Source: Candidatus Moraniibacteriota bacterium
GTDB lineage: Bacteria; Patescibacteriota; Minisyncoccia; Moranbacterales; UBA9337
Direction: 5' to 3'
DNA length: 64,000 bases
Assembly: GCA_049287345.1 (NCBI GenBank)
Contig: JBAQFQ010000010.1
Span: forward strand, 7,795-71,794
Positions 16,941 through 55,442 of this stretch are shown one piece after another; positions within the stretch are counted from its first letter, which is position 1; each line of letters begins with the position of its first letter. The position numbers and the translations under genes are program-made. The notes below the pieces were generated by a model that had not been told where the DNA came from, did no database searches, and was given only the letters and a program-made list of their open reading frames with translations.

Positions 16941-16978
16941 AAAACCCCAAGCAGATTGTTCCCTGCCTGGGGTTTTAT
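16941..16978. terminator. Bidirectional terminator (serves the minus-strand 16989..17822 gene)
   Basis: CCCCAAGCAG...CTGCCTGGGG stem followed by TTTTATT. Confidence 0.7.
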
Positions 16979-16988
16979 TCTTCCTCAC

Positions 16989-17822: not shown

Positions 17823-18000
17823 AATTACACCTCCATGATGTTTAAATTTTCCGACCCATCGGCCGCGAAGAACAATCGACCCCAGGCAGACCTGGCGATC
17901 TAGAGCGTTTTTTTATTAATCCTCGCCCCTACTAGGATTTTCTGCTTAAGTGTGGTATAAAAATAGCACACTGTTCAGACTGATAATTTAAACATATTTT

Positions 18001-18897: not shown

Positions 18898-18929
18898 AAA
18901 AGTATATACCTAGGTATATACTTTTTTTA
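18898..18929. terminator. Bidirectional terminator
   Basis: AGTATATACC/GGTATATACT stem followed by TTTTTTT. Confidence 0.8.
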
Positions 18930-18954
18930 TTGAAACTTTTTTAAATACTAGGAA

Positions 18955-20070: not shown

Positions 20071-20150
20071 AGATTTTTACTTTTACCCAAGCGCCTTATT
20101 TTGATACTCGCCTAGGCAATATTAATTTAATTATATATTTATATTTCTAT

Positions 20151-20459
20151 TTATTCATTTTCACCAGCCGCTGGATTAGCTGCTTGATTGGCTTCCTCTT
20201 TAGCCTTTTTGCTTTCCTCAAGTAACCGCTTTTCAATCTCCGCCAAATCATAACCTTGGGTGCCGCCACTTACTTTATAATCACTGAAGCCGATGCTTAA
20301 TTTCTTTAGAGATTCAGCTTTAATCATCACCCCTAGCAACAGACCAATAATCAAAATCAAAATAACTTCTGTTCGATAATTTTTCCTTAACGCATCCCTC
20401 TCCTCAATCACCTCTTCGATTTGAGCATCTTGCACATCATTTTTTTCTTGATCTTCCAT
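20151..20459 (-). CDS. Small membrane protein, hypothetical
   Basis: One TM helix and a charged coiled segment. Confidence 0.5.
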   Translation of the reverse strand: MEDQEKNDVQDAQIEEVIEERDALRKNYRTEVILILIIGLLLGVMIKAESLKKLSIGFSDYKVSGGTQGYDLAEIEKRLLEESKKAKEEANQAANPAAGENE

Positions 20460-20888
20460 ATTTTTTATATTAACAATTTACTCCTTTAAAAATATATTTG
20501 AAATAAAAATATTTTTTAACAAATACACAGCCCCGATGTTTAAATTACTGCAGTCTCAGTTTATGAAAAATAATATTCAGATACGTAAGCCCTAAAATAT
20601 TCCAATAACAAAATTTAATCGGATGTAAGTCTTTTAAGTATAACAACTATCAAAAATCTAGCAATATTGACAAATTTAAACTTTATTGCGTTGACCGTTA
20701 ATCATCATCAATTTACAATCTTCATCCAGGCAACTTTTTTTATTTTTTTATTTTTCATTGACAAAAAGCTTTAAATATGCAACTATTAGATTAATCAGAT
20801 CAGAACTGTAAGAGAAGCAAAGTCGACTTTTATCAAACAGTATTCTGTATTTGAATATTAATCAACAAGCTTATCTTACAAAAAAACG

Positions 20889-21089
20889 ATGAACAAAGGA
20901 AAAATTGCTCGTCTTACTGATAGAGGATTTGGCTTTATATCTCAAGATGGTGAAGAGAAAGATCTTTTCTTCCATGCATCTGAATTACAAGGTATGGAGT
21001 TCAATGAACTTAAAGAAGGAGACGCTGTAACATTTGAAGTGAAAGATGGTCCTAAGGGTCCTAACGCTGTGAATGTTAACAGAGCTTAA
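20889..21089 (+). CDS. cspA: Cold-shock protein (CspA family)
   Basis: GFGFI RNP-1 motif, FFH RNP-2; long 5' UTR with a candidate TTGACA promoter near 20757. Confidence 0.93.
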   Translation: MNKGKIARLTDRGFGFISQDGEEKDLFFHASELQGMEFNELKEGDAVTFEVKDGPKGPNAVNVNRA

Positions 21090-21096
21090 ATACAAC

Positions 21097-21128
21097 AAAA
21101 AACACCTCTATTATGGAGGTGTTTTTTA
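21097..21128. terminator. Bidirectional terminator after csp
   Basis: ACACCTC-tattatg-GAGGTGT followed by TTTTTT. Confidence 0.85.
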
Positions 21129-22283
21129 TTTGGCTATTTCTGACAAAATACCGATAAATCGTTTGGCTGACCTAGTCCAGGAAAATTTCTGCAGCTGCTT
21201 AATTCTTTTTACAACTAACTGGGCTTGCAATTCTTTGTCCAATAATAGATTTCTCAAAGCTAGGGCAATTTCATCTGGGCGATCAGCATCTACCAAGAGC
21301 CCCGCCTCGCCCACTGTCTCAATTAAGGACGAGTTGTTGGAAGCTACCACTGGTAGTCCACATTTCAAGGCTTCCAAGGGTGGGATACCAAAGCCCTCAA
21401 AAAAGGAGGGATAGACAAAGGCACTCGCTAAATTATAGACAAAGACTTTGTCTTCATTTTCAATAAAATTAACAACCTGAATAGATTTTCTATATTTTGA
21501 TTTTCTAATACTTTTTCTAATTTCCATAGATTTCCAACCCTCTGAACCAGCGATTACTAAACTATACTTATTTAAATCTCTATGCTGTTCATCTCTCAAT
21601 AATTCATAAGCCCTTACGATTCCGACAATATTTTTTCTAGGCTCAAAAGTGCCCAGAAATAAAATAAAATTAAAAGGTAGCTTATATTTATCTTTTACAA
21701 CTAAAAGCTGTGGGTTATTTCTATCCACTCGCATAAATTCATCCGACACACCATTATAAACAACATCAATTTTAGCCGGATTAATTTTATAAAAATTTAC
21801 CAAATCCTCCTTAGTAGATTGAGAAACCGCCATAATTCTATCCGCTTGCTGACTTAATTTTCTCGGATTAACAAAGGTATGCCAAAGCCGACGCTTAAAG
21901 GAAAAGGTCTCTGGATAGTATTCAAAAGAAAGATCATGCATTGTTAAAATTAAACGACTATCCCCAGAAAGCGCCACAAAATTTAAATTGGGCATAAAAA
22001 AAATGTCTACCCCACCTAAAAGTTTATCTAGCTTTGGCCAATTAAGATACCACAAAGATAGGTTAAGCAATTTATTAGGAAAATGAAAAAACTTTATTTT
22101 GACATTTTTATACTGCTTTAACCATTGGATATCTATGGATGATTTTCTCCAAGAATTCAAAAAAAGAATATACTCATTTTTTGCATCCTCCCTAAAAACC
22201 TTATCTAAAAAATTAACCACATATTCCTCCACTCCAGTTCTGCGACCCTCAGATAAACATCGTATGTCTATTCCTATTCTCAT
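21126..22283 (-). CDS. GT4-family glycosyltransferase
   Basis: EGFGIPPLEA motif and a GT-B fold. ATG at 22283 (MRIGIDIR); the track start at 22328 is TTG and would overlap repeat copy 3. Confidence 0.8.
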   Translation of the reverse strand: MRIGIDIRCLSEGRRTGVEEYVVNFLDKVFREDAKNEYILFLNSWRKSSIDIQWLKQYKNVKIKFFHFPNKLLNLSLWYLNWPKLDKLLGGVDIFFMPNLNFVALSGDSRLILTMHDLSFEYYPETFSFKRRLWHTFVNPRKLSQQADRIMAVSQSTKEDLVNFYKINPAKIDVVYNGVSDEFMRVDRNNPQLLVVKDKYKLPFNFILFLGTFEPRKNIVGIVRAYELLRDEQHRDLNKYSLVIAGSEGWKSMEIRKSIRKSKYRKSIQVVNFIENEDKVFVYNLASAFVYPSFFEGFGIPPLEALKCGLPVVASNNSSLIETVGEAGLLVDADRPDEIALALRNLLLDKELQAQLVVKRIKQLQKFSWTRSAKRFIGILSEIAK

Positions 22284-22307
22284 ATTCGTAAAATTACTCC
22301 CAATTAA

Positions 22308-22378
22308 AAGGTATTGACCACTGGGCAAGCCCTAGGCTCTACATGCGGCAAGCTGCAAAGAATTTACCCAAGGGGAAA
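22308..22378. repeat. Divergent partial copy 3 of the roughly 100-nt intergenic element
   Basis: AAAAGGTATTGACC...GCAAGCCCT.GGCTCTAC...GCAAGCTGCAAAGAATTTACCCAA aligns with copies 1 and 2. Confidence 0.55.
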
Positions 22379-22499
22379 TAATTATTCCATCCAAGACCGG
22401 TCATTAAATAGGTTATACTACAAACCCAAATGAACATATTGCCACCTCTTCAATATCCAACAGTTTAAGGCCTTTTGAAATTTTTAGCAAAGAATAAAT

Positions 22500-23087
22500 T
22501 TAATCCTTCAAATAGTGCCGAATAAGCACCGCCCAGACTCCCAAAAAAATCCCCCCACTCAACCAAGCCAATATTAAGTTAGTTAGACCTATTCCAGCTT
22601 GACTTGCAATTGGATAACTCACTAACACTCTAAACCATTGTGGGTTTTTTTGTTCCAAATTTAATTCCGAAATCTTGGTATTAATCACTGTATCAATTGC
22701 GCTAGCTACTGACTGCGACCATTCTTTATTTGCTACGACAAAAGAAACTCTTATCATCTGGGAGGATAATCTCTCCGCCTTAAGTTTTTCAAACTGAGCC
22801 GTTCCTATTTTTTTGTTAATTTCATTTTTAATTACCTCCGAACCCAACCAACGCACTACTGTATCGGCAAACCTTTCATCCGCCTGAAGACGATAAAATT
22901 CATCATAACGATATTCATTAGTTTCCTTTTGATAGCCAGTCCTGGTTACATTGAGATCTAACTCTACTTTATATTTATTTACTCGCAATAGTTGCCCAAC
23001 ACTCCCCACCAAACAAACCAAACCCAAAGTAATTAAAAATACTTTATAATTTTCCTTAAATATTTTTATATACTCTCTCAATTCCAT
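22500..23087 (-). CDS. Membrane protein with N- and C-terminal TM helices (Wzz-like topology), hypothetical
   Basis: Topology only. Confidence 0.5.
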   Translation of the reverse strand: MELREYIKIFKENYKVFLITLGLVCLVGSVGQLLRVNKYKVELDLNVTRTGYQKETNEYRYDEFYRLQADERFADTVVRWLGSEVIKNEINKKIGTAQFEKLKAERLSSQMIRVSFVVANKEWSQSVASAIDTVINTKISELNLEQKNPQWFRVLVSYPIASQAGIGLTNLILAWLSGGIFLGVWAVLIRHYLKD

Positions 23088-23259
23088 ACTTTAAATTAAT
23101 TTTTAATTATTGATTTTAAATTTTTAGTCAATTTTATAAATAATAAATTTTTAATGTTTTCATACAATATATTTCTAAACATCCCATAAGATTTTAGCCA
23201 TTAAATCATTTGATATTGATTTGAAATTTAAAATTTGAAATTTAAAATTTTTCAATATA

Positions 23260-24939
23260 CTACTTATCTTTCGGGGTTACCCAAAACTCAGTAAAATATT
23301 TTTTAATCAAAATTCTAGTCTGAGAATCAATCGCTGGCATCGCTCCCAATGTCGGAGCGATTATCGGTATTAGTAACCACTGAAAAAACATATTAAGATA
23401 CTTCCAGCGAGAATATTTAGCTGGTCGCTCCGGCATCAAAATAAAACTCAGTGACATAGAAATAATCAAACCAAACATCGCCAAGCTCATTAATCCTCTA
23501 GTAATAAAAGGCAAGTTATGAGCTAAAACACTTTCATTAAACTCACTCCCCCCAAAAATAAGAGGCATCCAACCCAAAAAGGCTAGAATAAAAGGAGCAG
23601 TCGCCCAAGAATGGTGACCTTCTAGCATCTCAAAAGCAATGTGCAATTTTCTACTTAACTTTATTGATTTATTTTTCCAAATAGCCCTCATAATAATTGG
23701 AAAATTTTCTATCCCATATGCCCAACGCCTTTTCTGAAAATATTGATTTTTTATAGTTTGCCAATATGTTTTAGCCAACACCGCATCCAATGAAATTGGT
23801 AAATATATAGGAGTCACCTGATAATCTCCATTATAAAAAGCAAAACACTTCCAATAAATAATTGAATCTTCACTGATCATATTTACTGGCCAGAAATCTA
23901 CATTTACCAACGTTGCAAACGGCTCACTATGCGAAGAAAAGGTAACCATCTCCTTTCTAGTGCTTTGAAACATATGCCAAAAAGAAGAACTCGTAACAAT
24001 CACCCGCACGAAAGCATTCGTATCCCATAAGTTGTTATGATACATCGGGATTGGCTGATATGAGCGCTGTAGGCGCTTGGGATCAATAATATAGTTATAA
24101 GTGAGGGCAGCGAAGTATTCTCGATGACAGACACTATCACAATCAAAATTAGAAAATAAGACTTTTTCAAAATCGACATCTCGCTCTTTCAGATATTTCA
24201 TCAGCTCCTTAGCAGCAAAAGTAGCATTAGAAGCCTTACATTTCATCTCACCATCCGCCACAATATGCGTAGTCACTAAAAAATCCCGAAAGACACCACT
24301 GAATTTATCTTTCAGGTAATTAACTTTTTTTAACCGCTGCTCGGCGTTTTCACGTTCCTCTGTGGCTAAAAGAATTATTATTTGTTTATTAGGAAAATTA
24401 CTTTGGGCAATTGCTTCGATAGTGGGCTCAATTACCTCCGCTGGCTCACCAGCGGTAGGGAGCATCACCACATGAACAATTTTTCGCCAATCCCAAATCT
24501 CTGCTTCTTTGCCCTTAAATTTAGAAACTTCTCGGCATTCTGTCTTTAAAAAACTAATTTCTTTTCTTATTTTTCTCTTTTGACTAAAGGAAAGTCTTTC
24601 CTTTAATACATTTTTCAAATCACCAATTCTCGTTGTCAGCATATCCACATAAGCTTCAGGATTTCCAATATTTTGACATCTCTCCCACCAATTGGTATTT
24701 TTTCCGCGGACCAATCGCCGATAAGCAGTCACCGAGTAAGTAGAGATAAAAATAGTTCGATGAATCCAATAAATATCAAACATTATAATAAATACTGAAA
24801 CCCACACTGGTAGCAAAAATGACAACAGCGGCATCCCAATAAGCGTTGACCAGGTCAAAATTCCTGGAATTACTTCCAGAGCTCTTTGCACTTTTTTATC
24901 AGTTGGATCTTGAGGATAAGGACTTGGAAAGTTAAACAT
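23260..24939 (-). CDS. Processive family 2 glycosyltransferase (cellulose-synthase-like), integral membrane
   Basis: QKRRWAYG (QxxRW) motif, multiple TM helices. ATG at 24939; the track start at 24945 is TTG. Confidence 0.75.
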   Translation of the reverse strand: MFNFPSPYPQDPTDKKVQRALEVIPGILTWSTLIGMPLLSFLLPVWVSVFIIMFDIYWIHRTIFISTYSVTAYRRLVRGKNTNWWERCQNIGNPEAYVDMLTTRIGDLKNVLKERLSFSQKRKIRKEISFLKTECREVSKFKGKEAEIWDWRKIVHVVMLPTAGEPAEVIEPTIEAIAQSNFPNKQIIILLATEERENAEQRLKKVNYLKDKFSGVFRDFLVTTHIVADGEMKCKASNATFAAKELMKYLKERDVDFEKVLFSNFDCDSVCHREYFAALTYNYIIDPKRLQRSYQPIPMYHNNLWDTNAFVRVIVTSSSFWHMFQSTRKEMVTFSSHSEPFATLVNVDFWPVNMISEDSIIYWKCFAFYNGDYQVTPIYLPISLDAVLAKTYWQTIKNQYFQKRRWAYGIENFPIIMRAIWKNKSIKLSRKLHIAFEMLEGHHSWATAPFILAFLGWMPLIFGGSEFNESVLAHNLPFITRGLMSLAMFGLIISMSLSFILMPERPAKYSRWKYLNMFFQWLLIPIIAPTLGAMPAIDSQTRILIKKYFTEFWVTPKDK

Positions 24940-24993
24940 ATACAATATTTTTGATTATTCTTTTTTTAAATTAATTTATCACCACCCATTTGC

Positions 24994-25353
24994 TTAAAAA
25001 TAATTCACTAAAATTAAAGCCCCACTTGCTACACTTATTCCCAGCTGAATAATTAAAGTAGTTAAAGATAAGATGTGAGAAAGCATTCGTTCTTTTTTCG
25101 AAAAAAAATAAATAGCTAAAATTAAGTTAATCACCGCAAAAAAAGCACCAATGGCTGGCACTAGAAATAATTGTGTACTTTTACCCATCAGATCCACCCC
25201 CAAATAAACGTTGTAATGTAAAATAATTAAATTATTTAGCTCTCTGACAAAATAAAATAAAAAAACAAAGTTTAAAATATTAATCAAAAAAGATATCCCA
25301 AATATGGTTATCAGTAGATTATTTTTAAAAAATTCTTTAATATCCGCTATCAT
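24994..25353 (-). CDS. Small polytopic membrane protein, hypothetical
   Basis: Three to four hydrophobic helices. Confidence 0.5.
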   Translation of the reverse strand: MIADIKEFFKNNLLITIFGISFLINILNFVFLFYFVRELNNLIILHYNVYLGVDLMGKSTQLFLVPAIGAFFAVINLILAIYFFSKKERMLSHILSLTTLIIQLGISVASGALILVNYF

Positions 25354-25359
25354 ATAGAC

Positions 25360-25968
25360 TTATTTCTTTAAAACTGAAACTATCTGCTTTATCTTTGGAA
25401 CCTTACTAAAAACTATTTCATGAGGCTCTTTAAAAGTATTGATCAAAAATCTATCCAGCATATTGAGACGATAATTCAACTCTTCACCAGTTAAAACCAT
25501 ATATCGAATCTCTTTGCCCACCTCCGCCTCTAAATGATTAATCAATGTCTTTAATTTAACACGGCTAATATTATCCACCACCAAAAGCAAATCCAATTTG
25601 CCCTTAGCATAATTCATAAAAACACCCGTAGTCAAAACCAACTTTACATCCCCCACCTTTTTGATATTTGCCAAACTACTACATTGAGGAAAAATATCTG
25701 ATTTAATTACCAATCTCTCCAATTCTTGATAAAAAGGGAAATTAGTATTTGTTTGATAAAATTTCTTTCCCTTTCTGGTTTTTTCCCTGATAAAATCAGC
25801 CTTTCTGAAAGACTTCAATTCTTTACGCGCCTCAGCTGAATTTAAGATATTTTTACTAATAATATCTGAAAAGGAATAATCCTGACTATTATTCAAAATA
25901 AAAAAACGCATCATTCGAGCCCTCGATTTTGAACCAAATAATATTTCTAAAACTTGAACTGCAGACAT
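25360..25968 (-). CDS. Hypothetical protein (202 aa)
   Basis: ORF with ATG; no recognisable motifs. Confidence 0.5.
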   Translation of the reverse strand: MSAVQVLEILFGSKSRARMMRFFILNNSQDYSFSDIISKNILNSAEARKELKSFRKADFIREKTRKGKKFYQTNTNFPFYQELERLVIKSDIFPQCSSLANIKKVGDVKLVLTTGVFMNYAKGKLDLLLVVDNISRVKLKTLINHLEAEVGKEIRYMVLTGEELNYRLNMLDRFLINTFKEPHEIVFSKVPKIKQIVSVLKK

Positions 25969-26224
25969 ACTTTATATAGAGTTAATTAATAATTAAAATT
26001 CCTCAAAAGAAACTATGCATTCTTTGATGTTTTCGGTAATTATTTTGAACTCAAATTTTACCGTTATTCTTAAAGGTATTTGGCAAGACCTATTTCAAGG
26101 GCATTTCCAAACCAGTTCTTTCTAAGACTTAGTTTAATACCAAAAAAACAAAAAGTAAATATTTACCATTCTGGGAAAAATGGGATAATATAAGCCAAGC
26201 AACTCCTAAATTTATCCGACTCGC

Positions 26225-26782
26225 TTAAACAGTCATGATATCCTGCTCTTTCTTTTCTCTCAATTCATCTACTTTTTTATTATAATCATTGATCACTTCT
26301 TGCAATCTCTCCTTACCTCTAAACTTATCATCCTCAGCAATTTCTCCTGATTTTTGTGCCTCCTGAATTTCCTGCCAAGTTTCCTCTCGCACATTTCTAA
26401 TAGAAATTCTCGCTTCTTCCGCTTTTTTATTTAAAACTTTTACCAATTCCATTCTGCGTTCTTCATTTAAGGCTGGAATATTGATGCGAATAACTTCCCC
26501 ATCATTGTTAGGAGTTAAATTTAAATCAGACGTTTTAATCGCCGCCTCAATGCTTGCCAAACTATCCCTGCTCCAAGGTTGGATAAGCAAAGTTCTTGGC
26601 TCAGGCACATTAATGTTGGCCATTTGTCGAATAGGGGTACGTACTCCGTAATAATCCACCATCAAATCTTCCAAAATAGTAGGATTGGCTCGACCAGTTC
26701 TTATTTTTGTCATCTCATTTTTAAAATGTTCCATCGCCCCATCCAAATCACTTTTTTTATCCTCTATAATTTTCTTGTACAT
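26225..26782 (-). CDS. frr: Ribosome recycling factor
   Basis: Full-length RRF signature (MYKKIIED...VDYYG...NIPALNEERRMELVK). Confidence 0.93.
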   Translation of the reverse strand: MYKKIIEDKKSDLDGAMEHFKNEMTKIRTGRANPTILEDLMVDYYGVRTPIRQMANINVPEPRTLLIQPWSRDSLASIEAAIKTSDLNLTPNNDGEVIRINIPALNEERRMELVKVLNKKAEEARISIRNVREETWQEIQEAQKSGEIAEDDKFRGKERLQEVINDYNKKVDELREKKEQDIMTV

Positions 26783-26818
26783 ATTTTTATAAAATAAAAA
26801 ATTACTTAATTGGTTTTA

Positions 26819-27868
26819 TTATTGAAAACTTCTCAAACTAGCGTAGATTGTATTAACATCACTCGGGTTAAAAATAATTTTTGAAATTAATTTTCCAGTG
26901 TTTAGTTGAAAGGTGGACCAATTTTTCCCACCATCTACTGATCGATAAATAGCTTGTGCCGCACTATAAACTATCTCTTCTGAATTTTGTGGATTAATTG
27001 CCAACGAACGAATCGGAAAACTCTTGGCTGTAGCTAAAACATTTATCTCCGCAAAAGTTTCTCCTGCATTGCTACTTTTAAAAATTCCATTATTAGTTCC
27101 CACATAAATCCAACCACTATCATTATCGCTTACCGCCAAAGAATACGGTTTGCCCAACTCGCTACTCGCTGCTCCCAAGTTATTGCCCACTATTTTAAAA
27201 TTATCCCCAGCCGCTCCGGAAACTAAAACCTGACTTTCATAAACTAAATAATAAATATGACTATCAGCACCTCCACCTATGATTATTTTGCTAATTGGAC
27301 CAGCGGCCGTATAGATACTGCGCCAAGTTTCGCCGCCATCCACTGTTTTTAATATAATCCCATTTGAAGTTCCCACATACAAAACAGCTGGGTCATTTTT
27401 ATCCATGGCCATAGAAATAATCATTGTTCCGTCAGCCGGCTCAGTATAAACCTCTTGCCATTCTTCTCCATAATCGCTAGTTTTATAAATTTTTCCCCGC
27501 TCGCCTAGCACACCACTAGCGTAAATCTCGCTCGGTTTAGAATAATTAACCGCCAAAGTATAAACTTTATTAGCGGGAAATTTTATTTTTTTCCAAGTTT
27601 CCGCTCCGTCCTCAGAAAAAACTATACCTTTATCTTTGGTACCCAAATAAATTCTATCATTATCAAGCGGATCAATTACCATCTCCAGGGCATCTACCTT
27701 TGCTAAAGTTTGTTTTTCATCTACTTTCCTTTTAAGCTCCCAACTGACTCCAGAATCTGAAGTTTTCAAGACACCCCCAGTTTCCCCACTTGAGCTACCA
27801 CTCAAAGAGCAACCCGTTATCAAAAAAATAATACTAGAAAAACAAATACCCAAAAATAACTTATTCAT
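26819..27868 (-). CDS. Lipoprotein with BNR/Ycf48-like repeats (beta-propeller)
   Basis: Lipobox LITGCS; six S/T-x-D-G-G-x-T-W repeats. Confidence 0.75.
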   Translation of the reverse strand: MNKLFLGICFSSIIFLITGCSLSGSSSGETGGVLKTSDSGVSWELKRKVDEKQTLAKVDALEMVIDPLDNDRIYLGTKDKGIVFSEDGAETWKKIKFPANKVYTLAVNYSKPSEIYASGVLGERGKIYKTSDYGEEWQEVYTEPADGTMIISMAMDKNDPAVLYVGTSNGIILKTVDGGETWRSIYTAAGPISKIIIGGGADSHIYYLVYESQVLVSGAAGDNFKIVGNNLGAASSELGKPYSLAVSDNDSGWIYVGTNNGIFKSSNAGETFAEINVLATAKSFPIRSLAINPQNSEEIVYSAAQAIYRSVDGGKNWSTFQLNTGKLISKIIFNPSDVNTIYASLRSFQ

Positions 27869-27983
27869 AATTTGTTAAAAATAAAGTTTAATTCTATCCT
27901 ACTGGCTATTATATAGGGAAAATCAAAAAAAATCCAACAACAAAAAATACCCTGGATAAAATATTAATCCCCACGCTTGCGAA

Positions 27984-29177
27984 CTATTTCACCTCTCGAA
28001 TTTCAGCGCTTACTGGGCAAGCTGGCATTTGGCAAGTTGTTATAGTCTCCTGATTTGTACAATTTGTTCTGATTAAACCATCAGTTTTATGCCCCCGTCC
28101 ACATTGAACATCACAAACACCCACCTTGGTATAAGCGTTGCAATTTACATAAGTAGTTGCCACCGCACTACCCGTACTATTTGTAGTATCTTTTTTTGTA
28201 CAACTAGCCTTAAAAGAATTAATTCCATTAGTGCCATATGTCGCTATCGTAACAGAGGCCTGATGGCTAGTTACATCACCCGAATTAAACATTTTTGGCG
28301 ATGAAGTGATACCAGGGCCAGTAAGTATACATTCGCAACCCTTGCTATCACTGCCACAACTTCCTGATGCTAAATTAGTTATATTCCAGTTCAGAGTTAT
28401 ATTTTGTGGATTATTTAATGTTATACTATCGGGCGTATTTAATTTAAGTCTTGCTCCTGAAGTAGATGGAGGGGTAGCTGTTAGGGTTACTGTTGGCACC
28501 GGCACGTAAGGTGCACTACAGCTATCATTTGTCGCCGCACCTCGACAAGTCCAAACCCACTTATTTCCACTCTTTACTGGGGTTGTACTGCTAGTACTAA
28601 AATAGCAACGCTTATCTGCCGCAGGTGCAGCTCCGGTGGCGATGGCCTCAGTCTCGGCATTGCAAACTCCACAAACCCTCGGGTTAGGAACATCCGAACA
28701 AACTGGTCCTTCAATTTTTTCTGAACCAAATTCTTTACCAGTGGAAATATCGCACGTAGTCCATTTTTTGTAACCAGTAATTCCTGTGCAGGTGCACTTA
28801 TCTGGTTGAGCCACACAAGTAGTAACATCTCTGCCGCATGTCCCAATAGTATGACAACCACCAATGTCATCACAATTAATTGAACCAGGTCCGCAATTAT
28901 CACAATAAGCATCAACATGCTTAGCGGGGAGGCAATGTTGATCCCATGGGGGACCAAAACAAAGTTCAGGAAGATCTACGGCACCATGGCAACTATCATA
29001 ATTTGTGTTACTTGGATTGCAAAGATCCGGATTCCAGCAAACAAAACTTGTCGTACATTTATCTGGTTGAGGCGTACAAGTCACACTATAAGCTACCGCG
29101 AGATCAATATGCCCAAAAAACAAAAAACCTCCGCCAACCAAAAAACTCAGCATTAAGGTAAGAAAATTATGTTTCAT
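27984..29177 (-). CDS. Secreted, extremely cysteine-rich protein (397 aa, about 45 Cys), hypothetical
   Basis: Signal peptide; Cys/Gly/Thr/Pro-rich body; markedly higher GC than the flanks. Confidence 0.65.
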   Translation of the reverse strand: MKHNFLTLMLSFLVGGGFLFFGHIDLAVAYSVTCTPQPDKCTTSFVCWNPDLCNPSNTNYDSCHGAVDLPELCFGPPWDQHCLPAKHVDAYCDNCGPGSINCDDIGGCHTIGTCGRDVTTCVAQPDKCTCTGITGYKKWTTCDISTGKEFGSEKIEGPVCSDVPNPRVCGVCNAETEAIATGAAPAADKRCYFSTSSTTPVKSGNKWVWTCRGAATNDSCSAPYVPVPTVTLTATPPSTSGARLKLNTPDSITLNNPQNITLNWNITNLASGSCGSDSKGCECILTGPGITSSPKMFNSGDVTSHQASVTIATYGTNGINSFKASCTKKDTTNSTGSAVATTYVNCNAYTKVGVCDVQCGRGHKTDGLIRTNCTNQETITTCQMPACPVSAEIREVK

Positions 29178-29201
29178 ATTTTAAATTTAATTAATTATCT
29201 T

Positions 29202-30161
29202 TTATTTTAATAATTCTAATATCTTATTAGCTTGCTGGCGAATCTCCTCGTTTTCACTACTGGCTGCTCTTTCACAATTTTTCTTAGCCTGGGAATTATT
29301 TTCTTTTTTAAAATATAAATCACATAAGTAAGAAGCTGTCGCAATCTCGTTGGTGCTATTTTTATTAGCCTTTTCTAAATCATTGATAGCTTCATCATAT
29401 TTATTTAATTTAGTATAAGTTATGGCTCGATTAATGTACCCACCCTCATTATCTCCCAGTTCAATACTCCTAGTGTAATATTTTAACGCTGCCTCATCCT
29501 CATTTTTTAACCTAGCTAAATCACCCAGCACCAGTTGAACCCTGGCATTATTTGGATTGAATTTTTCCAGCTCCTGAGCTAAAGTTACTAAATTATCAAT
29601 GTCACCCAGACTTTTACTTCGCAAGTCCGCATCACTCCGGTAGAGAATAATATTTTTCATAATCAAATCCAAATTACTTTGGACATAATTAGCATCCACA
29701 TTTCTTTTCTCCACCTCCGCCTGAGTCAAAACCTTAGCATCAGGATTTTCTTTTCTTAGTTTATCCATCTGCGCCAAACTATCCCTGACTACCAACAAGC
29801 ACTCCTCCTTCACAACAGTTGATTTTATCTGCTCACAATTTTCCGCGTTATAGTCCTTGAGAGCTTGTTGATAAAATTTGATATCATTAGCATAATTACT
29901 GCAATGCTCCAATTTATCAACACCCTTGTCTTTTAAACATTGGCAATAATTCTTACCACCATTTTCATAAATTTTTGTATAAATTTCATTGTCTGCAGTA
30001 AATTCACATTTTATCTCTTCAACCTCAACCTTTTCTTCCTTATTTCCAGCTAGCCATGAATCATTATTAAATATTTTTTTCACCTGAAAAAAATAAAAAA
30101 CAACGAAAAAAACAACTGCAATAAAAATCGCACCCAAAATTAAATTTTTTTTGTTTTGCAT
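29202..30161 (-). CDS. Membrane-anchored TPR-repeat protein
   Basis: N-terminal TM helix; TPR-like helical repeats in the C-terminal half. Confidence 0.6.
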   Translation of the reverse strand: MQNKKNLILGAIFIAVVFFVVFYFFQVKKIFNNDSWLAGNKEEKVEVEEIKCEFTADNEIYTKIYENGGKNYCQCLKDKGVDKLEHCSNYANDIKFYQQALKDYNAENCEQIKSTVVKEECLLVVRDSLAQMDKLRKENPDAKVLTQAEVEKRNVDANYVQSNLDLIMKNIILYRSDADLRSKSLGDIDNLVTLAQELEKFNPNNARVQLVLGDLARLKNEDEAALKYYTRSIELGDNEGGYINRAITYTKLNKYDEAINDLEKANKNSTNEIATASYLCDLYFKKENNSQAKKNCERAASSENEEIRQQANKILELLK

Positions 30162-33750: not shown

Positions 33751-33982
33751 AAAAATAAAAAGACGACCAGCTCTCCCATTATATTATCTAAAATAAAAAG
33801 AAGCAAAAAATTTAAAATTATCATCAAAAGATAGATTTATGATTTAAGATTTACGAATTACGAATTTTTTCAATATCTCATTTTCTTAAATCTTAAATCA
33901 TAAATCTTAAATCCAATCATTCAAAATTTATTAATCCGTTAACTCATTAACTACACAATAATCAATGCCAAAAAGCTACCCG

Positions 33983-49206: not shown

Positions 49207-50397
49207 TTATTTGATAATTTTTGTTGCAATACCAGCACCTACAGTTCTTCCACCTTCTCGAATTGCAAATCTCATTCCCTCTTCCATCGCTACATTAGAT
49301 GAAAGTTTGATTTTTAGATTTACAGTATCTCCAGGCATAACCATTTCAGTTCCTTCTGGAAGCTCTACTTCTCCAGTTACATCAGTAGTTCGAATATAGA
49401 ACTGAGGTTTGTAACCCTTGAAGAAAGGAGTATGTCTTCCACCTTCTTCTTTAGTAAGAACGTAGATTTCTCCTTCAAATTCGCTATGAGGAGTAATAGA
49501 TCCAGGAGCTGCCAAAACTTGACCTCTCTCTACATCTTCTTTCTTAGTTCCTCGAATAAGAATTCCAGCATTGTCTCCAGCTTGACCCTTATCTAATTGC
49601 TTATTAAACATCTCAATTCCAGTAACTGTTGTTTTTTGAGTGTCTCTTAAACCAATAATCTCTACTTCATCACCAATTTTTACTGTTCCTCTTTCGATTC
49701 TTCCAGTAATAACGGTTCCTCTACCTTCGATAGAGAAGATATCTTCGATTGGCATCAATAAAGGTTTTTCAGTATCTCTAACTGGTTCTGGAATTTTCTC
49801 ATCCAATGCAGCTAGTAAATCCCAAATTGGCTTAGCTTTTTCATCATCAGGATCAGTTACATTCAAAGCTTGAACAGCTGAACCACGAATAATTGCAGCA
49901 TTTTCACCATCGAATTGATATTTTGAAAGAAGCTCTCTAATTTCTTCCTCAACTAAGTCGATTAATTCAGGATCATCCACCATATCAATCTTGTTAACGA
50001 AAACAACGATATTGGAAACACCTACTTGATTAGCCAAAAGAATGTGCTCTCTAGTTTGTGGCATAGGACCGTCAGTAGCACTTACTACGATAATCGCTCC
50101 GTCCATTTGAGCAGCACCAGTAATCATGTTTTTGATATAGTCAGCATGACCAGGACAGTCAACATGAGCATAATGTCTTTTTTCTGATTCATATTCACAA
50201 TGAGCAGTAGCGATAGTAATACCTCGCTCTCTTTCCTCAGGAGCCTTATCGATTTCTGAGATATTTTTTGCTTTTGCCATTCCTTTTAGGCTTAGCACAT
50301 GTAAAATAGCCGCTGTTAAAGTGGTTTTACCATGGTCAACATGACCGATTGTTCCCACATTAACATGGGGTTTGGTTCTTTCAAATTTTTCTGCCAT
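49207..50397 (-). CDS. tuf: Elongation factor Tu
   Basis: [18 protein letters not shown]-motifs; 396 aa. Confidence 0.97.
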
Positions 50398-50537
50398 AAA
50401 ACTTTACGCTGCGAAAGAAAATCCACCTTCGCATTTTTTATATTTTATTAATTATTATTTTTTAAAAATAAATTCTTTTTCTTTGTAAAAAATAACGCAA
50501 CACAAAAATAACATTCCGCTTTTCTTTGTGATACCCA

Positions 50538-50568
50538 ATAATAATAGCACTCTTATTTTTTTTGTCAA
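50538..50568 (-). promoter_or_regulatory. Candidate tuf promoter TTGACA-N16/17-TATTAT (minus sense)
   Basis: The reverse complement of 50536-50568 reads ttgacaaaaaaaataagagtgctattat. A hairpin enclosing the AGGTGG Shine-Dalgarno sits just upstream of the ATG. Confidence 0.5.
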
Positions 50569-50774
50569 TAGGAAAGTCTCTACTAATTACGAATCTGTAC
50601 GAATATACAAAAAAAGTCACAAATTTCTTTATCTATAGGGCAAATGACCATTTTTTAATTCTCAATTTTCAATCAATCTTCAATGATTTAATATCCAGAA
50701 AATTCAATCCTCCACTTCTTAAAATAAATTAAATTTATCATTTCAAAAATACACCCAATTTTACATGGTCTTCC

Positions 50775-50803
50775 GTACAGACGAGGCACTGCCTCGTCTC
50801 TAC
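50775..50803. repeat. Hairpin element GTACAGACGAGGCactGCCTCGTCTCTAC, left boundary of the ORF6N insertion
   Basis: Inverted copy at 51513-51538; shares the GGCACTGCC apex with the 4871 and 16873 hairpins. Confidence 0.75.
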
Positions 50804-50806
50804 AAT

Positions 50807-51427
50807 CTATTTTTTCGCCTCCCTAAAACCTATTACTTTCAACTCTTTATCTTTGGGGTCAGTCATCATTAGTCTGTTGATAATTTTAAATATAATCTTG
50901 AAATTAGATTCATTTTTCTTTTCCATTTTTTCTATTTTATCACGTAGTTCTTTGTGAGTTGAAAGTATTTTTCTCATCCCAATAAACGCTCGCATTATTT
51001 GAATATTCACTTGGATAGCTCGATCGCTTTTAAGAACGCTCGAAAGCATAGCAATGCCTGGTTCGGTAAAAACGTATGGCAGATATTTTATATTTTGACC
51101 CCTGTTCAAGGTCACAATTTGTGACCTTGAAAATTTATCATTTCTTGAAGTCACAATTTGTGACCTTGAGTTTTCATCACTTGAGGTGCCAAATTGGAAC
51201 CCTGAGAAGATATCTGCTTCTTTTTTATTAAGCTGAAACATAAAATCTTCCGGAAATCTTTTTATGTTTCTTTTAACTGCTTGATTGAGAACTTTTGTTT
51301 CTACGCCATAAAGCAACGCAAGATCTTTATCAAATATTACCTTCTCACCTCTGATATAGTAAATCTTTCCGATAATTCTTTCATCAGGAATAATAACTAT
51401 TGATTTTTTGTTTTTAGCTTCGGACAT
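50807..51427 (-). CDS. ORF6N-domain (KilA-N-related) phage-associated DNA-binding protein, inserted between fusA and tuf
   Basis: LALLYGVETKVLNQAVKRNIKRFPEDFMFQL and RSQIVTS...LPYVFTEPGIAMLSSVLKSDRAIQVNIQIMRAF match the ORF6N family. Contains an in-frame 39-nt tandem duplication. Confidence 0.65.
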   Translation of the reverse strand: MSEAKNKKSIVIIPDERIIGKIYYIRGEKVIFDKDLALLYGVETKVLNQAVKRNIKRFPEDFMFQLNKKEADIFSGFQFGTSSDENSRSQIVTSRNDKFSRSQIVTLNRGQNIKYLPYVFTEPGIAMLSSVLKSDRAIQVNIQIMRAFIGMRKILSTHKELRDKIEKMEKKNESNFKIIFKIINRLMMTDPKDKELKVIGFREAKK

Positions 51428-51512
51428 TTTGTTTTATGAAGATTTTACTATGCCTTAATTTTATCACGAAATCACCCCATCATACAAACAAAAATTAAAA
51501 AATACCAATATC

Positions 51513-51538
51513 GAGACGAGGCAGTGCCTAGTCTGTAC
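51513..51538. repeat. Hairpin element, right boundary of the ORF6N insertion (inverted copy of 50775-50803)
   Basis: GAGACGAGGCagtGCCTAGTCTGTAC. Confidence 0.75.
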
Positions 51539-51540
51539 AC

Positions 51541-51577
51541 AAAACAAAAACCTCGACATAGTGTCGAGGTTTTTTTA
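51541..51577. terminator. fusA terminator (bidirectional)
   Basis: CCTCGACA-tag-TGTCGAGG with an A-run before and TTTTTTT after. Confidence 0.85.
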
Positions 51578-51601: not shown

Positions 51602-53734
51602 CTATTTTTTGTCTCCACTGATTATCTCTTGCGCAATATTGGATGGAACTTCAGCATATCTGGCAAATTCCATTACTGATGATGCTCGACCCTGAGTCAT
51701 GCTGCGAAGCTGAGTAGTGTAACCAAACATCGCGGAAAGCGGAACTTCTGTTTCAATTTCTTTAATAATCGCTGTTCCCTCACCCTTGTCGTTAATTTCC
51801 TTAATTATTCCCCGACGAGAATTGATATCACCTACTACGTCTCCCATATATTGCTCTGGAGCACTTATTACAACTTTCATGATTGGTTCAAGTATAATTG
51901 GTTTAGCCATCTTGGCGGCTGATTTGAAAGCCATTGAACCAGCTACCTTAAAGGCGGCTTCGGAGGAATCCACATCATGATATGTTCCATCATAAAGAGT
52001 TGCTTTAACATCCACCATTGGAAATCCAGCTAAAATACCATTTCCCATCGCCTCTTTTATACCCTTTTCTACATGAGGAATAAATTCTTGTGGAATAGCA
52101 CCTCCCTTAATTTCATTAGCAAATTCGAAAATAGAGTCTTCTTTCTTCTTGCCTGATTTTCTTTCCGCCTCTTTTTCCTCCTCAGTCTTCTCCACTTTAA
52201 CCAAAGGTTCAAGACGAATCCAACAATGACCATATTGACCACGACCTCCTGATTGTTTAATATATTTACCTTCAGCCTCAGCATTACCCTTGATAGTTTC
52301 TCGATAAGCCACCTGAGGTTTACCAATATTAGCTTCTACTTTAAATTCTCGCTTCATTCTATCTACCAAAACATCTAGATGAAGCTCACCCATTCCAGAA
52401 ATAATTGTTTGTCCACTCTCTTCATCAGTTCGCACTCTAAAAGTTGGATCCTCTTCAGAAAGTTTTCGTAAAGCAATCGCCATTTTTTCTTGATCAGCTT
52501 TAGTCTTAGGTTCAATAGCGATATCAATCACTGGTTCTGGGAAAGTCATTTTTTCCAAGATTACATGTTTATCCATATCACAAAGAGTGTCTCCAGTAGT
52601 AGTATTTTTGAGTCCTACCAAAGCACCAATTTCACCTACTCCCAAAAATTCGATTTCTTCACGGTGATTAGCGTGCATTCTTAAAATTCGACTAATTCTT
52701 TCTTTTTCCCCCTTAGTTGAATTGTAAACATAAGAACCAGATTTAAGTGAACCAGAATAAATTCTAAAAAAAGTAACTTGTCCCACGAAAGGGTCAGTCG
52801 CCACTTTAAAAGCTAGGGCAGCGAAAGGCTCCTCTTCAGTTGGATGAATATCCAATTCTGCTCCGGTTTTTTCATCCTCAGCTTTTACTGGAGGAAGATC
52901 AAGTGGGGATGGCAAATAATCCAAAACTGCATCCAAAACTAATTGCACACCTTTATTTCGCAAAGCTGTTCCAGTTAAAACTGGGATTAATTTCACATCA
53001 ATCACCGCTTTTCGCAAAGCATCTTTTAATTCCTCTTGAGAAATTTCCTCTCCTTCTAAAAATTTCATTGTTAATTCATCATTTGTTTCAGAAATCTTTT
53101 CTACCAAAATATCTCGACGAGCTTTAGCCTTTTCCATCATCTCCGCTGGGATTTCTTTTTCTACTACTGTCTCACCCATCGCTCCCTCAAATTCATAAGC
53201 TTTCATTTTTACCAAATCAATCACACCAGAAAAATCACCTCTTTCTCCAATTGGAATTTGAATCGCTACCGCCTTAGGGCTAAGTCGATCATGAATTGAT
53301 TTTAAGGCTTTATCAAAATCAGCTCCTTCTTTATCAATTTTATTTATAAAACACATGCGTGGCACACCATATCTATCTGCTTGACGCCAAACAGTTTCAC
53401 TTTGTGGCTCTACACCCTCTTTACCGTCAAAAATAACCACTGCACCATCAAGTACACGTAGTGATCGCTCTACCTCCACAGTAAAATCCACATGGCCAGG
53501 AGTATCGATAATGTTAATTTGGTGTTCTTTCCAAGTACAAGTTGTGGCCGCACTAGTTATAGTGATACCTCGCTCTCGCTCTTGTTCCATCCAGTCCATT
53601 GTTGCTTCTCCCTCATGCACCTCACCAATCTTATGAGTGATTCCAGTATAATACAAAATACGCTCAGTGGTGGTAGTTTTACCTCCATCAATATGAGCAA
53701 TGATTCCAATATTTCTTAGTTTTTTGATATCCAT
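51602..53734 (-). CDS. fusA: Elongation factor G
   Basis: [22 protein letters not shown]-motifs; domains II-V; a lineage-specific Lys/Glu-rich insertion. Confidence 0.96.
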
Positions 53735-55290: not shown

Positions 55291-55442
55291 ATTAAATATA
55301 TCTTACATAGAATAAGATTTTCATTCTTAAATCTTGAATCATACATCTTAAATCTATTATGCCCAATAAATAAAAAGAACCCAGAATGTAAAAGTTCTAC
55401 ATTCTGAGTTCAGTACCTCTATGCGCCGTCAGCGTTATTCGT

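What the first reader, a model, noticed from the sequence alone, without database searches (positions are those of the whole stretch)
50775..51538. Phage-type ORF6N DNA-binding gene inserted between fusA and tuf, flanked by inverted hairpins, splitting the str operon
fusA and tuf are normally adjacent and co-transcribed. Here a 764-bp segment with a 206-aa ORF6N-family gene (with its own AT-rich upstream region) lies between them. It is bounded by inverted near-identical 26-nt hairpin elements; fusA gets its own terminator (51541-51577) and tuf a consensus-like promoter (about 50538-50568). Inside the ORF, a 17-nt palindrome GGTCACAatTTGTGACC is tandemly duplicated with a 39-nt period (51108-51170), giving SRSQIVTS...SRSQIVTL. 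That is the same 39-nt in-frame periodicity as the Elp3 elements.
Basis: partly seen in the sequence, partly recalled or inferred. Interest (0 to 1): 0.66.

Follow-up and report, generated by a model that had tools for sequence, protein, structure and literature searches.

The report
ORF6N gene carrying conserved coding palindromes
A small DNA-binding gene of the ORF6N family (a candidate anti-phage family) sits in a naturally variable gap between two translation-factor genes of a Moranbacteria genome; the insertion story is ordinary, but the gene's odd internal repeats are a 27-base DNA palindrome that this gene family keeps, by codon choice, across bacterial phyla.

Summary
In detail: a 206-aa ORF6N gene (50807-51427, minus strand), two near-identical palindromic hairpins, a fusA terminator, a tuf promoter and two internal palindromes 39 nt apart.

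- In nine related Moranbacteria contigs, fusA and tuf are already separated, each with its own terminator and promoter. Eight hold an unrelated small ORF ("X") in the gap and one holds nothing.
- The window and one other relative hold ORF6N instead. This is gene replacement in a variable slot, not the splitting of an intact operon.
- The hairpins are not cassette ends. The other ORF6N-bearing relative lacks them, and the fusA-side copy is a separate 47-nt insertion between 9-nt direct repeats. They belong to a lineage-specific palindromic repeat family (stem GTAGAGACG) that is enriched next to ORF6N genes.

The unexpected result is the internal "RSQIVT" repeats. They encode a 13+1+13-nt palindrome, TTGAGGTCACAA-W-TTGTGACCTCAA.
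- It is kept across ORF6N genes of 29-64% GC by fixed synonymous codons and compensatory changes.
- Cognate copies lie just outside the gene in several phyla.
- The central base flips A/T among near-identical contigs.

I found no description of this element. Its function is inferred; the protein's own DNA site is my leading guess.

The parts
51602..53734 (-). fusA (EF-G), 710 aa
   Evidence: ORF. Homologues at 74-94% identity carry EF-G Pfam domains.
51546..51574 (-). fusA intrinsic terminator (13-bp stem, T-run), conserved in relatives
   Evidence: Pattern scan; fold -20.5 kcal/mol, z=-5.95. Aligns with L013 and L173.
51495..51541 (-). 47-nt segment absent from relative L173, bracketed by 9-nt direct repeats TTTTTGTTT (51486-51494 and 51542-51550). 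It contains the fusA-side hairpin.
   Evidence: Window/L173 alignment; coordinates checked.
51513..51538 (.). fusA-side copy of the GTAGAGACG-type palindromic repeat (degenerate)
51451..51473 (-). ORF6N promoter/5'-UTR motif GATTTCGTGATAAAATTAAGGCA (extended -10-like TGATAAAAT). It is shared with ORF6N homologues in other contexts.
   Evidence: Single copy in the window. Also found in L173 (twice) and L175. Homology with L175 starts at 51475. Promoter function is inferred.
50807..51427 (-). ORF6N-domain protein, 206 aa (PADLOC candidate defence family PDC-S05)
   Evidence: Pfam; PADLOC E=4.9e-54; PHROG anti-repressor. The family has 31,721 cluster representatives at E<=1e-3.
51144..51170 (.). 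ORF6N-box copy 1 (encodes SRSQIVTS; 10/13 arm pairs)
51105..51131 (.). ORF6N-box copy 2 (encodes SRSQIVTL; perfect 13+1+13 palindrome)
   Evidence: (I10).
50775..50803 (.). tuf-side copy of the palindromic repeat (14+1+14, one mismatch), starting 3 nt after the ORF6N stop codon. It occupies the same position as in homologue L175.
50612..50774 (-). 163-bp spacer with no counterpart in L013. It ends at a half ORF6N-box (AATTTGTGACTTT, 50613-50625).
   Evidence: Homology breakpoints; half-site (D5, I12, I13).
50541..50568 (-). tuf promoter TTGACA-16-TATTAT, conserved in relatives
   Evidence: aligned with L013, L176 and L177.
49207..50397 (-). tuf (EF-Tu), 396 aa
   Evidence: Pfam annotation of homologous genes in relatives.

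Best explanation
Each claim below is marked as shown or inferred.

1. The gene (shown). The window comes from a Candidatus Moraniibacteriota (CPR) genome. Between fusA and tuf lies a stand-alone ORF6N (KilA-N superfamily) DNA-binding gene. It belongs to the PADLOC candidate defence family PDC-S05.

2. The transcription unit (inferred). The gene is transcribed from its own promoter, and a hairpin follows the stop codon.

3. The slot (shown). In this clade, fusA ends with its own terminator and tuf starts from its own promoter. The gap normally holds a fast-evolving small ORF 'X'.

4. How ORF6N got there (inferred). In the window lineage and in relative L173, ORF6N occupies the slot instead of X. 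This reads as gene replacement in a variable slot by a promoter-plus-ORF unit that is also found in unrelated contexts.

5. The hairpins (shown as repeats; mode of spread inferred). The two flanking hairpins are copies of a lineage-specific family of 21-29-nt GC-rich perfect palindromes with stem GTAGAGACG...CGTCTCTAC. They occur singly or nested in intergenic DNA and are enriched within about 120 nt of ORF6N genes. They behave as separate small insertions of a REP-like kind, not as cassette termini.

6. The ORF6N-box (shown). The internal repeats are a family-wide nucleic-acid element, a 13+1+13 palindrome with consensus TTGAGGTCACAA-W-TTGTGACCTCAA. It lies in the linker between the two protein modules. 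It is maintained by synonymous-codon constraint and compensatory changes. Cognate copies often lie just outside the gene. It is found essentially only in or next to ORF6N genes.

7. What the box does (inferred, about 0.35-0.4). The box is the cis site on which the ORF6N protein itself acts, as a dyad-symmetric operator or an extruded hairpin. This would give autoregulation or local nucleoprotein assembly, so each gene would travel with its own site. The A/T flip of the central base, which gives the Ile/Phe dimorphism, would then reflect hairpin-mediated template switching or recombination within the palindrome.
For: Gene identity:
- Pfam, PHROG and PADLOC hits.
- The source names the identical protein 'ORF6N domain-containing protein [Candidatus Moraniibacteriota bacterium]'.

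The slot:
- L013 (EF-G 97% identical), L176 (94%) and L178-L183 (91%) all carry homologous 108-136-aa ORFs between the conserved terminator and promoter. L177 has a 545-bp gap with no gene.
- L173 has fusA, terminator, then ORF6N (80% aa identity) without hairpins.
- Homology breakpoints are given, and no remnant of X is detectable.

The hairpins:
- The same sequence, AGACGAGGCAGTGCCTCGTCTCTAC, lies 3 nt after the stop codon in L175. Related copies lie upstream of ORF6N in L093 and L008, and in a nested cluster at L093 7063-7230.
- None occurs in the rest of the window or in L176-L192.
- By my count, 5 of 6 hairpin sites lie within 120 nt of an ORF6N gene in about 156 kb of Moranbacteria-like DNA (my own estimate of the DNA surveyed, not a tool output).

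The box:
- Codons at the box: Ser is TCA in 67/74 cases against 17% elsewhere in the same genes. Val is GTG in 67/68 against 27%. Arg is AGG in 34/47 against 12%.
- Relative synonymous-codon entropy is mostly about 0.8-1.0 along the gene. It falls to 0.00-0.57 at the box codons; elsewhere only two Ser columns fall as low (S130 0.56, S134 0.46).
- 11.7 of 13 pairs are complementary. Only 5.1 (sd 0.17) are expected when the same amino acids are re-encoded with each gene's own codon usage.
- Covariation: 94.3% of cells are paired against 81% in shuffles and 27-44% in slid controls. There are 118 double-change cells against 30 expected, and 9 of 13 pairs show compensatory changes.
- Pairing stops at positions 14-15.
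- Extragenic cognate boxes occur in metagenome loci, in a Legionella pneumophila plasmid and in viral contigs.
- In 1.06 Mb of viral contigs only 3 weak boxes lie more than 700 nt from the ORF6N match. The core motif occurs 0 times in 664 kb of control loci.
- A 31-nt box query retrieves sites in or beside ORF6N genes on plasmids of four phyla: annotated ORF6N in Bacteroides, Sulfuricurvum and Treponema, and a site 18 nt after an ORF6N stop in Legionella.
- The central base is A or T among contigs 98.3-99.7% identical.
- AlphaFold gives pLDDT 25-34 for residues 77-113, the segment encoded by the boxes.
Against: - No experiment or structure links the ORF6N protein to the box.
- A 27-bp perfect dyad is longer than a typical operator, and outer-arm covariation would also fit a hairpin that merely needs to pair.
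- Arm-to-arm template switching could keep a palindrome perfect without any binding function.
- Only 35 of 80 viral homologues and 73 of 86 metagenome homologues have a strict in-gene box.
- The window has no extragenic box, only a half-site.
- The slot phylogeny rests on 294 nt of fusA. There L013 (which has X) and L173 (which has ORF6N) are closer to each other (91%) than either is to the window (85-86%). So either two acquisitions or recombination must be assumed.
- The enrichment of hairpins near ORF6N was noticed post hoc, in loci chosen because they contain ORF6N.
- The 9-nt direct repeat is T-rich and could be a coincidence.
Confidence: 0.6

Rival explanations
1. First reader's reading. 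A 764-bp mobile cassette bounded by 26-nt terminal inverted hairpins carried ORF6N into an intact fusA-tuf junction and split the str operon.
For: - The two hairpins are in inverted orientation (25/26) and are the only copies in 64 kb.
- Both share the derived outer end GTACAGAC, whereas other loci have GTAGAGAC.
- Homology with L013 ends exactly at the outer edge of the fusA-side hairpin.
- The hairpin family is enriched beside ORF6N genes.
Against: - L173 has the gene at the same junction without hairpins.
- The fusA-side hairpin is a separate 47-nt indel.
- The tuf-side homology break lies 163 bp outside the hairpin.
- The 764-bp unit has no target-site duplication, no second copy of the whole unit was found, and no transposase is present.
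- The unit shared with L175 excludes the 5' hairpin.
- All relatives already have a split fusA/tuf with terminator and promoter.
Confidence: 0.12
2. ORF6N downstream of fusA is the ancestral state of this sub-clade. ORF X replaced it in the other lineages, and the hairpins are incidental.
For: - Two lineages (the window and L173) share the same left junction, with terminator T-tract followed by the ORF6N promoter.
- ORF6N nucleotide divergence (76%) is compatible with the fusA 3' divergence (83-86%).
Against: - X occupies the slot in L013, L176 and L178-L183, which span 91-97% EF-G identity and bracket the window.
- L013, which has X, is the closest to L173 in fusA 3' sequence (91%).
- ORF6N homologues with the same promoter occur in other contexts.
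Confidence: 0.1
3. The ORF6N-box acts at the RNA level. It would be an mRNA hairpin, or with two copies a long duplex, used for RNase III processing, translational pausing or mRNA stability.
For: - Compensatory changes preserve pairing.
- In the window, the two boxes fold into a -35.4 kcal/mol structure with z=-6.2.
- The boxes lie inside the transcript.
Against: - G.T (23) is not favoured over A.C (32) among single mismatches on the sense strand.
- The near-central synonymous T (pair 2) is conserved in 70/73 sites, and a 1-nt loop is impossible for a hairpin.
- Extragenic copies lie upstream of the start codon or after the stop codon in variable positions.
- Non-coding copies keep the arm sequence, not just the pairing.
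Confidence: 0.2
4. The box is a self-perpetuating or recombinogenic palindrome with no protein partner. Arm-to-arm template switching would keep it perfect, and it would serve as a breakpoint for duplication and module exchange between ORF6N genes.
For: - The central base flips among near-identical contigs.
- L141 has a tandem duplicate of the C-terminal half that starts exactly at a box, and arrays of boxes follow the gene in L141 and L144.
- The box sits at the boundary between the N and C modules.
Against: - Persistence across phyla in genes of 29-64% GC, with a conserved consensus even in non-coding copies, argues for selection on the sequence.
- Palindromes are normally unstable and are lost when they have no function (established knowledge, not tested here).
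Confidence: 0.18

Closest known systems
Stand-alone ORF6N / KilA-N-type DNA-binding proteins (Pfam PF10543; PHROG 'anti-repressor' families)
   Same: Full-length Pfam match. Same size and two-module layout as thousands of bacterial and phage homologues.
   Different: The window copy is not in a prophage. It sits between housekeeping genes. Its linker carries two box copies, whereas the Pfam model has one (the match covers 111 residues for an 86-position model).
PADLOC candidate defence system PDC-S05 (single gene)
   Same: Hits three PDC-S05 models, best E=4.9e-54. A PDC-S05 representative reduced plating of T7 and T5 about 1000-fold in E. coli (10.1101/2024.09.26.614923).
   Different: The tested representative had a Virulence_RhuM domain, and the window protein shows no such Pfam hit at E<=0.1. 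The context is ribosomal and translation genes, not a defence island. No phenotype is known for this protein.
REP / REPIN elements mobilised by RAYT transposases (my own knowledge: short GC-rich palindromes with a conserved 5' GTAG, scattered in intergenic DNA)
   Same: The flanking hairpins are short GC-rich intergenic palindromes. The canonical copies begin with GTAG and occur singly, as inverted pairs or nested.
   Different: Copy number is very low here (2 in 64 kb). No RAYT gene was identified. GTAG is part of the stem. They are associated with ORF6N genes rather than spread genome-wide.
parS inside the spo0J/parB gene (my own knowledge: a conserved 16-bp palindrome bound by ParB lies within its own coding sequence)
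   Same: A conserved palindrome embedded in the coding sequence of a DNA-binding protein. It could be that protein's own site.
   Different: No sequence or fold relation. The ORF6N-box is 27 nt, is often duplicated, and is confined to the gene and its flanks. Binding is untested.
In-frame palindromic elements in coding genes (Rickettsia palindromic elements) and quasipalindrome template-switch mutagenesis (my own knowledge)
   Same: A palindrome is read through in frame. It encodes almost the same peptide in either orientation (RSQIVT / RSQFVT). The centre flips.
   Different: The box is not a dispersed repeat inserted into many different genes. It is specific to one protein family and is part of that family's Pfam model.

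Membership tests
ORF6N domain family (PF10543) | Match to the Pfam HMM above the gathering score | tested here: met
   109.7 bits against a cut-off of 27.8; model positions 2-86 of 86.
KilA-N superfamily fold | Structural similarity to KilA-N/APSES-type DNA-binding domains | tested here: inconclusive
   AlphaFold model has mean pLDDT 63.8. Foldseek against PDB gives nothing below E=4. The PDB sequence search gives nothing.
PADLOC PDC-S05 candidate defence gene | Match to PDC-S05 profile HMMs | tested here: met
   PDLC04869 E=4.9e-54, PDLC04856 E=1.1e-52, PDLC04849 E=5.6e-34.
PADLOC PDC-S05 candidate defence gene | Domain content of the experimentally tested representative (Virulence_RhuM) | tested here: not met
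   No RhuM hit in the Pfam scan at E<=0.1. The match to the 306-position model covers only positions 4-155.
PADLOC PDC-S05 candidate defence gene | Protection against phage | not testable with these tools
   Only a literature report for another family member is available.
Transposable cassette with terminal inverted repeats | Terminal inverted repeats | tested here: met
   25/26 in inverted orientation. However, each arm is itself a palindrome.
Transposable cassette with terminal inverted repeats | Target-site duplication flanking the whole unit, and an empty site in relatives | tested here: not met
   No direct repeat flanks 50775-51538. Relatives have ORF X or ORF6N without hairpins, and none has an empty junction at these ends.
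Transposable cassette with terminal inverted repeats | Further copies of the same bounded unit, or a transposase | tested here: not met
   There is one ORF6N gene in the window. No locus has hairpin-ORF6N-hairpin. No transposase domain is present.
REP/REPIN-like palindromic repeats | Short GC-rich palindrome with conserved GTAG end, intergenic, repeated across the genome | tested here: inconclusive
   The sequence type fits. Only 2 copies occur in 64 kb, and complete genomes were not available.
REP/REPIN-like palindromic repeats | Cognate RAYT (Y1 transposase) gene in the genome | not tested
   Only a 64-kb window and short loci were available.
Intrinsic terminator | GC-rich stem followed by a T-run | tested here: not met
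   This feature is met for the fusA terminator. Neither flanking hairpin in the window was called by the scan, and neither has a T-run. Related hairpins in L008 and L175 do have T-runs.
Prophage or phage-derived island | Neighbouring phage genes | tested here: not met
   The neighbours are rpsL, rpsG, fusA, tuf, rpsJ and rplC/D/W.

The most novel reading that the evidence does not exclude
Every ORF6N gene is a self-contained protein-plus-site module. The 27-nt ORF6N-box would be a DNA hairpin or cruciform site that the ORF6N protein binds or processes. The box lies inside the coding sequence and is often repeated just outside it. The A/T flip at its centre would be the footprint of that processing. 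In Moranbacteria, the GTAGAGACG palindromes next to the gene would play the role of the extragenic copies. This would be a previously unrecognised cis element shared by a family with about 15,000-30,000 sequence clusters, including a candidate anti-phage system.
Probability: 0.3. Interest if true: 0.8.

Novelty: new member of a known kind. Interest (0 to 1): 0.55.

Why it matters
The locus as flagged is ordinary. A common accessory gene occupies a variable gap that already existed between fusA and tuf in this lineage.

The value lies in what the internal repeats reveal.
- ORF6N proteins are very widespread: 31,721 clusters at 50% identity.
- They are annotated only as 'DNA-binding' or 'anti-repressor'. 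They have recently been listed as a candidate defence family, and one member was reported to protect E. coli from phage.
- A 27-nt palindrome kept inside the coding sequence by codon choice across phyla gives a concrete, testable handle on what these proteins act on.
- It also explains the family's best-conserved 'protein motif' (RSQ[I/F]VT) as largely a nucleic-acid constraint.
- Cultivable carriers exist for experiments, on plasmids of Legionella pneumophila and Bacteroides ovatus.

Tried and rejected
- Rfam scans of the window region and of L093 gave nothing near gathering scores.
- An exact scan for the hairpin in viral contigs gave no match.
- NCBIfam gave no hit for ORF6N or for ORF X. 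ORF X also had no PHROG or PADLOC hit; it was not scanned against Pfam, but the precomputed records list no Pfam family for the X genes in L176 and L178-L183.
- The PDB sequence search and Foldseek on the model found no significant relative.
- E. coli genomes essentially lack the box, with one plasmid hit.
- A search for remnants of ORF X in the window slot found none.
- A search for other 39-nt-period repeats ('Elp3 elements') found none at 24/30 or more.
- A survey of 80 more distant ORF6N loci for flanking GC-rich hairpins showed no general pattern. The hairpin association is therefore limited to Moranbacteria-like homologues.
- Base composition shows no clear foreign signature: ORF6N is about 0.34 GC against 0.37-0.40 for fusA and tuf.
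- Literature searches for ORF6N, for KilA-N plus palindrome, and for the box sequence found no description of the element.
- I considered and dropped resemblances of the box core to CRP, lac-operator and IHF sites. The half-site order and spacing differ. These were recalled from memory and not tested.
Full report
**1. What is there**

The region lies on the minus strand of a str/S10-type cluster: rpsL, rpsG, fusA (53734-51602), a 206-aa ORF (51427-50807), tuf (50397-49207), rpsJ, rplC, rplD, rplW.
- The ORF matches Pfam ORF6N with E=8.6e-32. It also matches PHROG 'anti-repressor' families and three models of the PADLOC candidate defence family PDC-S05, best E=4.9e-54.
- The identical protein is on record as 'ORF6N domain-containing protein [Candidatus Moraniibacteriota bacterium]'. 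The window is therefore from a CPR/Patescibacteria genome.
- The family is very large: 31,721 representatives of 50%-identity clusters at E<=1e-3 and 14,916 at E<=1e-10.
- The described hairpins, terminator, promoter and internal palindromes are all present.
- Three corrections apply. Each hairpin is itself a palindrome. The fusA-side hairpin is degenerate. The tuf-proximal internal palindrome is a perfect 27-mer.

**2. Is it an insertion that split the operon?**

Typical bacteria have 30-200 bp between fusA and tuf. In the CPR loci I recovered, the two genes are often far apart or unlinked.

Within the window's own clade I obtained ten related contigs.
- L013 (EF-G 97% identical), L176 (94%) and L178-L183 (91%) all have the same fusA terminator and tuf promoter. 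Between them lies a small ORF of 108-136 aa. These ORFs are mutually homologous (motif AAGxxGGKxIDIY) and match no NCBIfam, PHROG or PADLOC family; the precomputed records list no Pfam family for them.
- L177 (91%) has a 545-bp gap with no gene.
- Only L173 shares ORF6N (80% aa, 76% nt) directly after the fusA terminator.

The separation of fusA and tuf into their own transcription units, with a gene in between, therefore predates ORF6N. ORF6N replaced the usual occupant.

On 294 nt of fusA, L013 and L173 are 91% identical to each other and 85-86% identical to the window. So either two acquisitions or recombination between lineages is needed. That part remains unresolved.

**3. The flanking hairpins**
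- L173 lacks both hairpins.
- Against L173, the window has an extra 47 nt (51495-51541) that contains the fusA-side hairpin. It lies between 9-nt direct repeats TTTTTGTTT.
- Against L013, homology ends at the outer edge of that hairpin. On the tuf side it resumes 163 bp beyond the other hairpin.
- The unit shared with L175, an ORF6N homologue in a different context, runs from the promoter motif (51475) through the ORF into the 3' hairpin. The promoter/5'-UTR motif GATTTCGTGATAAAATTAAGGCA is specific to these ORF6N genes.
- The hairpin sequence itself recurs in other genomes. AGACGAGGCAGTGCCTCGTCTCTAC lies 3 nt after the ORF6N stop codon in L175. A variant lies 75 nt upstream of ORF6N in L008. 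A composite lies upstream of ORF6N in L093. A nested cluster lies at L093 7063-7230, away from any ORF6N.
- None occurs in 80 more distant ORF6N loci, in the rest of the window, in L176-L192 or in viral contigs.

They are thus a lineage-specific palindromic repeat family. By my count, 5 of 6 sites lie within 120 nt of an ORF6N gene in about 156 kb, so they are enriched there. They are not the ends of a cassette. Both window copies share the derived outer end GTACAGAC, so they are sister copies. How the inverted pair arose is not explained.

**4. The internal palindromes**

The protein alignment shows 0-3 copies of an xRSQ[I/F]VTx motif in a variable-length linker.

At the DNA level the motif is encoded almost invariantly as AGG TCA CAA ATT GTG ACC, in genes ranging from 29 to 64% GC.
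- Ser is TCA in 67/74 cases against 17% elsewhere in the same genes.
- Val is GTG in 67/68 against 27%.
- Arg is AGG in 34/47 against 12%.
- Phe is TTT in 16/16 against 56%.

Further evidence for a nucleic-acid constraint:
- Dyad symmetry extends 13 nt on each side of a single central base and stops at position 14.
- When one arm changes, the other follows, even across amino-acid changes. Examples are AAG...ACT with AGG...ACC, TTG...TCA with TCA...TTG, and TCA/GTG with AGC/GGC.
- On 70 sites chosen only by the protein motif, 94.3% of cells pair, against 81% in shuffles and 27-44% in slid controls. There are 118 double-change cells against 30 expected, and 9 of 13 pairs have compensatory changes. 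Three clearly non-homologous regex hits were left out of that alignment. Including them (75 sites) still gives 11.7 of 13 pairs.
- Re-encoding the same peptides with each gene's own codon usage gives 5.1 pairs (sd 0.17).
- A codon-entropy profile over 80 genes stays mostly around 0.8-1.0. It drops to 0.00-0.57 at the box codons; elsewhere only Ser130 (0.56) and Ser134 (0.46) fall as low.
- AlphaFold places the encoded peptide in a low-confidence linker with pLDDT 25-34. That is consistent with weak protein-level constraint, although the alignment was shallow.

**5. Where else the box occurs**
- Cognate copies lie 9-60 nt outside the gene, upstream or downstream, in at least nine metagenome loci. 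Sometimes they form arrays. In L141 the box marks the start of a tandem duplicate of the C-terminal half.
- A Legionella pneumophila plasmid has one copy in the gene and a matching one 18 nt after the stop codon.
- A 31-nt box query finds sites in or beside ORF6N genes on plasmids. Hits in Bacteroides, Sulfuricurvum and Treponema lie in annotated ORF6N genes, and the Legionella hit lies just after one.
- In 1.06 Mb of viral contigs nearly all boxes lie within 700 nt of the ORF6N match. The core motif is absent from 664 kb of control loci.
- In one gut-virus group the only box lies 57 nt upstream of the start codon. Its central base is A or T among contigs that differ at 3-19 of 1100 positions. 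In gene copies the same flip converts Ile (ATT) to Phe (TTT), the two common residues at that position.
- Single mismatches show no preference for sense-strand G.T (23) over A.C (32). Non-coding copies keep the arm consensus. Both points lean towards a DNA-level element rather than an mRNA hairpin.

**6. Mechanism**

Shown:
- a stand-alone ORF6N gene unit sits in a variable slot;
- independent palindromic repeats lie beside it;
- a conserved intragenic palindrome is under nucleic-acid-level constraint and is confined to the gene unit.

Inferred:
- The box is the protein's own site, either a dyad operator or an extruded hairpin, giving autoregulation or local assembly.
- Centre flipping reflects hairpin-mediated template switching or recombination.

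The rivals are an RNA-level structure and a self-maintaining recombinogenic palindrome. Neither is excluded.

The defence role rests only on PADLOC membership and on a published test of a RhuM-domain PDC-S05 gene. The window protein lacks that domain.

**7. Verdict**

The finding as written is a real but ordinary locus with an over-read insertion story. The internal repeats lead to a family-wide element for which I found no description in the searchable literature.

Noticed in passing
L013 5620-6030; L176 4443-4769; L178 2320-2688; L181 3149-3547: A fast-evolving small ORF family (108-136 aa, shared motif AAGxxGGKxIDIY, no NCBIfam/PHROG/PADLOC hit for the L013 member and no Pfam family on record for the others) is the usual occupant of the fusA-tuf gap in this Moranbacteria clade. 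Contigs with identical EF-G carry 122-aa and 132-aa variants.
   Followed up: partly
window 7645-7668 and 16881-16901; L093 7063-7230: Other small GC-rich palindromes sit in 3' regions just before canonical terminators (ACCTGTCGTTCGCGAACGACAGGT and GAACAGGGCACTGCCCTGTTC). The first type recurs nested inside the L093 palindrome cluster, which suggests a set of related palindromic modules in these genomes.
   Followed up: partly
L173 364-378 and 1073-1087; L186 about 2960-3000 and about 3640-3680: In two loci the ORF6N promoter/5'-UTR is directly repeated on both sides of the ORF6N gene. The downstream copy precedes a large secreted protein (N-terminus ...FFIFGLGFGKDASAATY...). It looks as if ORF6N was inserted between that gene and its promoter.
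   Followed up: no
window 50613-50625: A half ORF6N-box (AATTTGTGACTTT on the minus strand) lies exactly where homology with relative L013 resumes, about 190 nt after the ORF6N stop codon. It may be chance or a relic of recombination at a box.
   Followed up: partly
window 50398-50440: A stem-loop that includes the tuf ribosome-binding site (GCGAAGGTGGATTTTCTTTCGC) is conserved identically in L013 and L176. It is possibly a translational control element of tuf.
   Followed up: no
window 50575-50603; L013 5451-5475 and 6232-6258; L008 about 4840-4895: Short ATTCGTA/ACGAAT repeats lie next to GTAGAGAC motifs upstream of the tuf promoter. In L013 they form an inverted pair flanking the slot gene. 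In L008 four ACGAAT repeats precede the hairpin.
   Followed up: no
window 8728-8757, 33884-33913, 55325-55355 and many others: Many intergenic 7-nt-period tandem repeats (TCTTAAA, ATTTGAA, AAATTTT and others) are scattered through the window.
   Followed up: no
window 513-745 and 946-1172: Two near-perfect tandem duplications have periods of 102 and 121 nt (96-99% identity). The first contains tRNA-like sequence.
   Followed up: no
L174 5593-5859; L177 2246-2533: Small GIY-YIG genes lie next to ORF6N (overlapping its 3' end in L174) and next to the str cluster in a relative.
   Followed up: no
L122 3800-4080: Downstream of an ORF6N homologue lies an array of about 40-nt repeats (GAAAACACAAACACTTTGAACGTCCCTAC...).
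   Followed up: no
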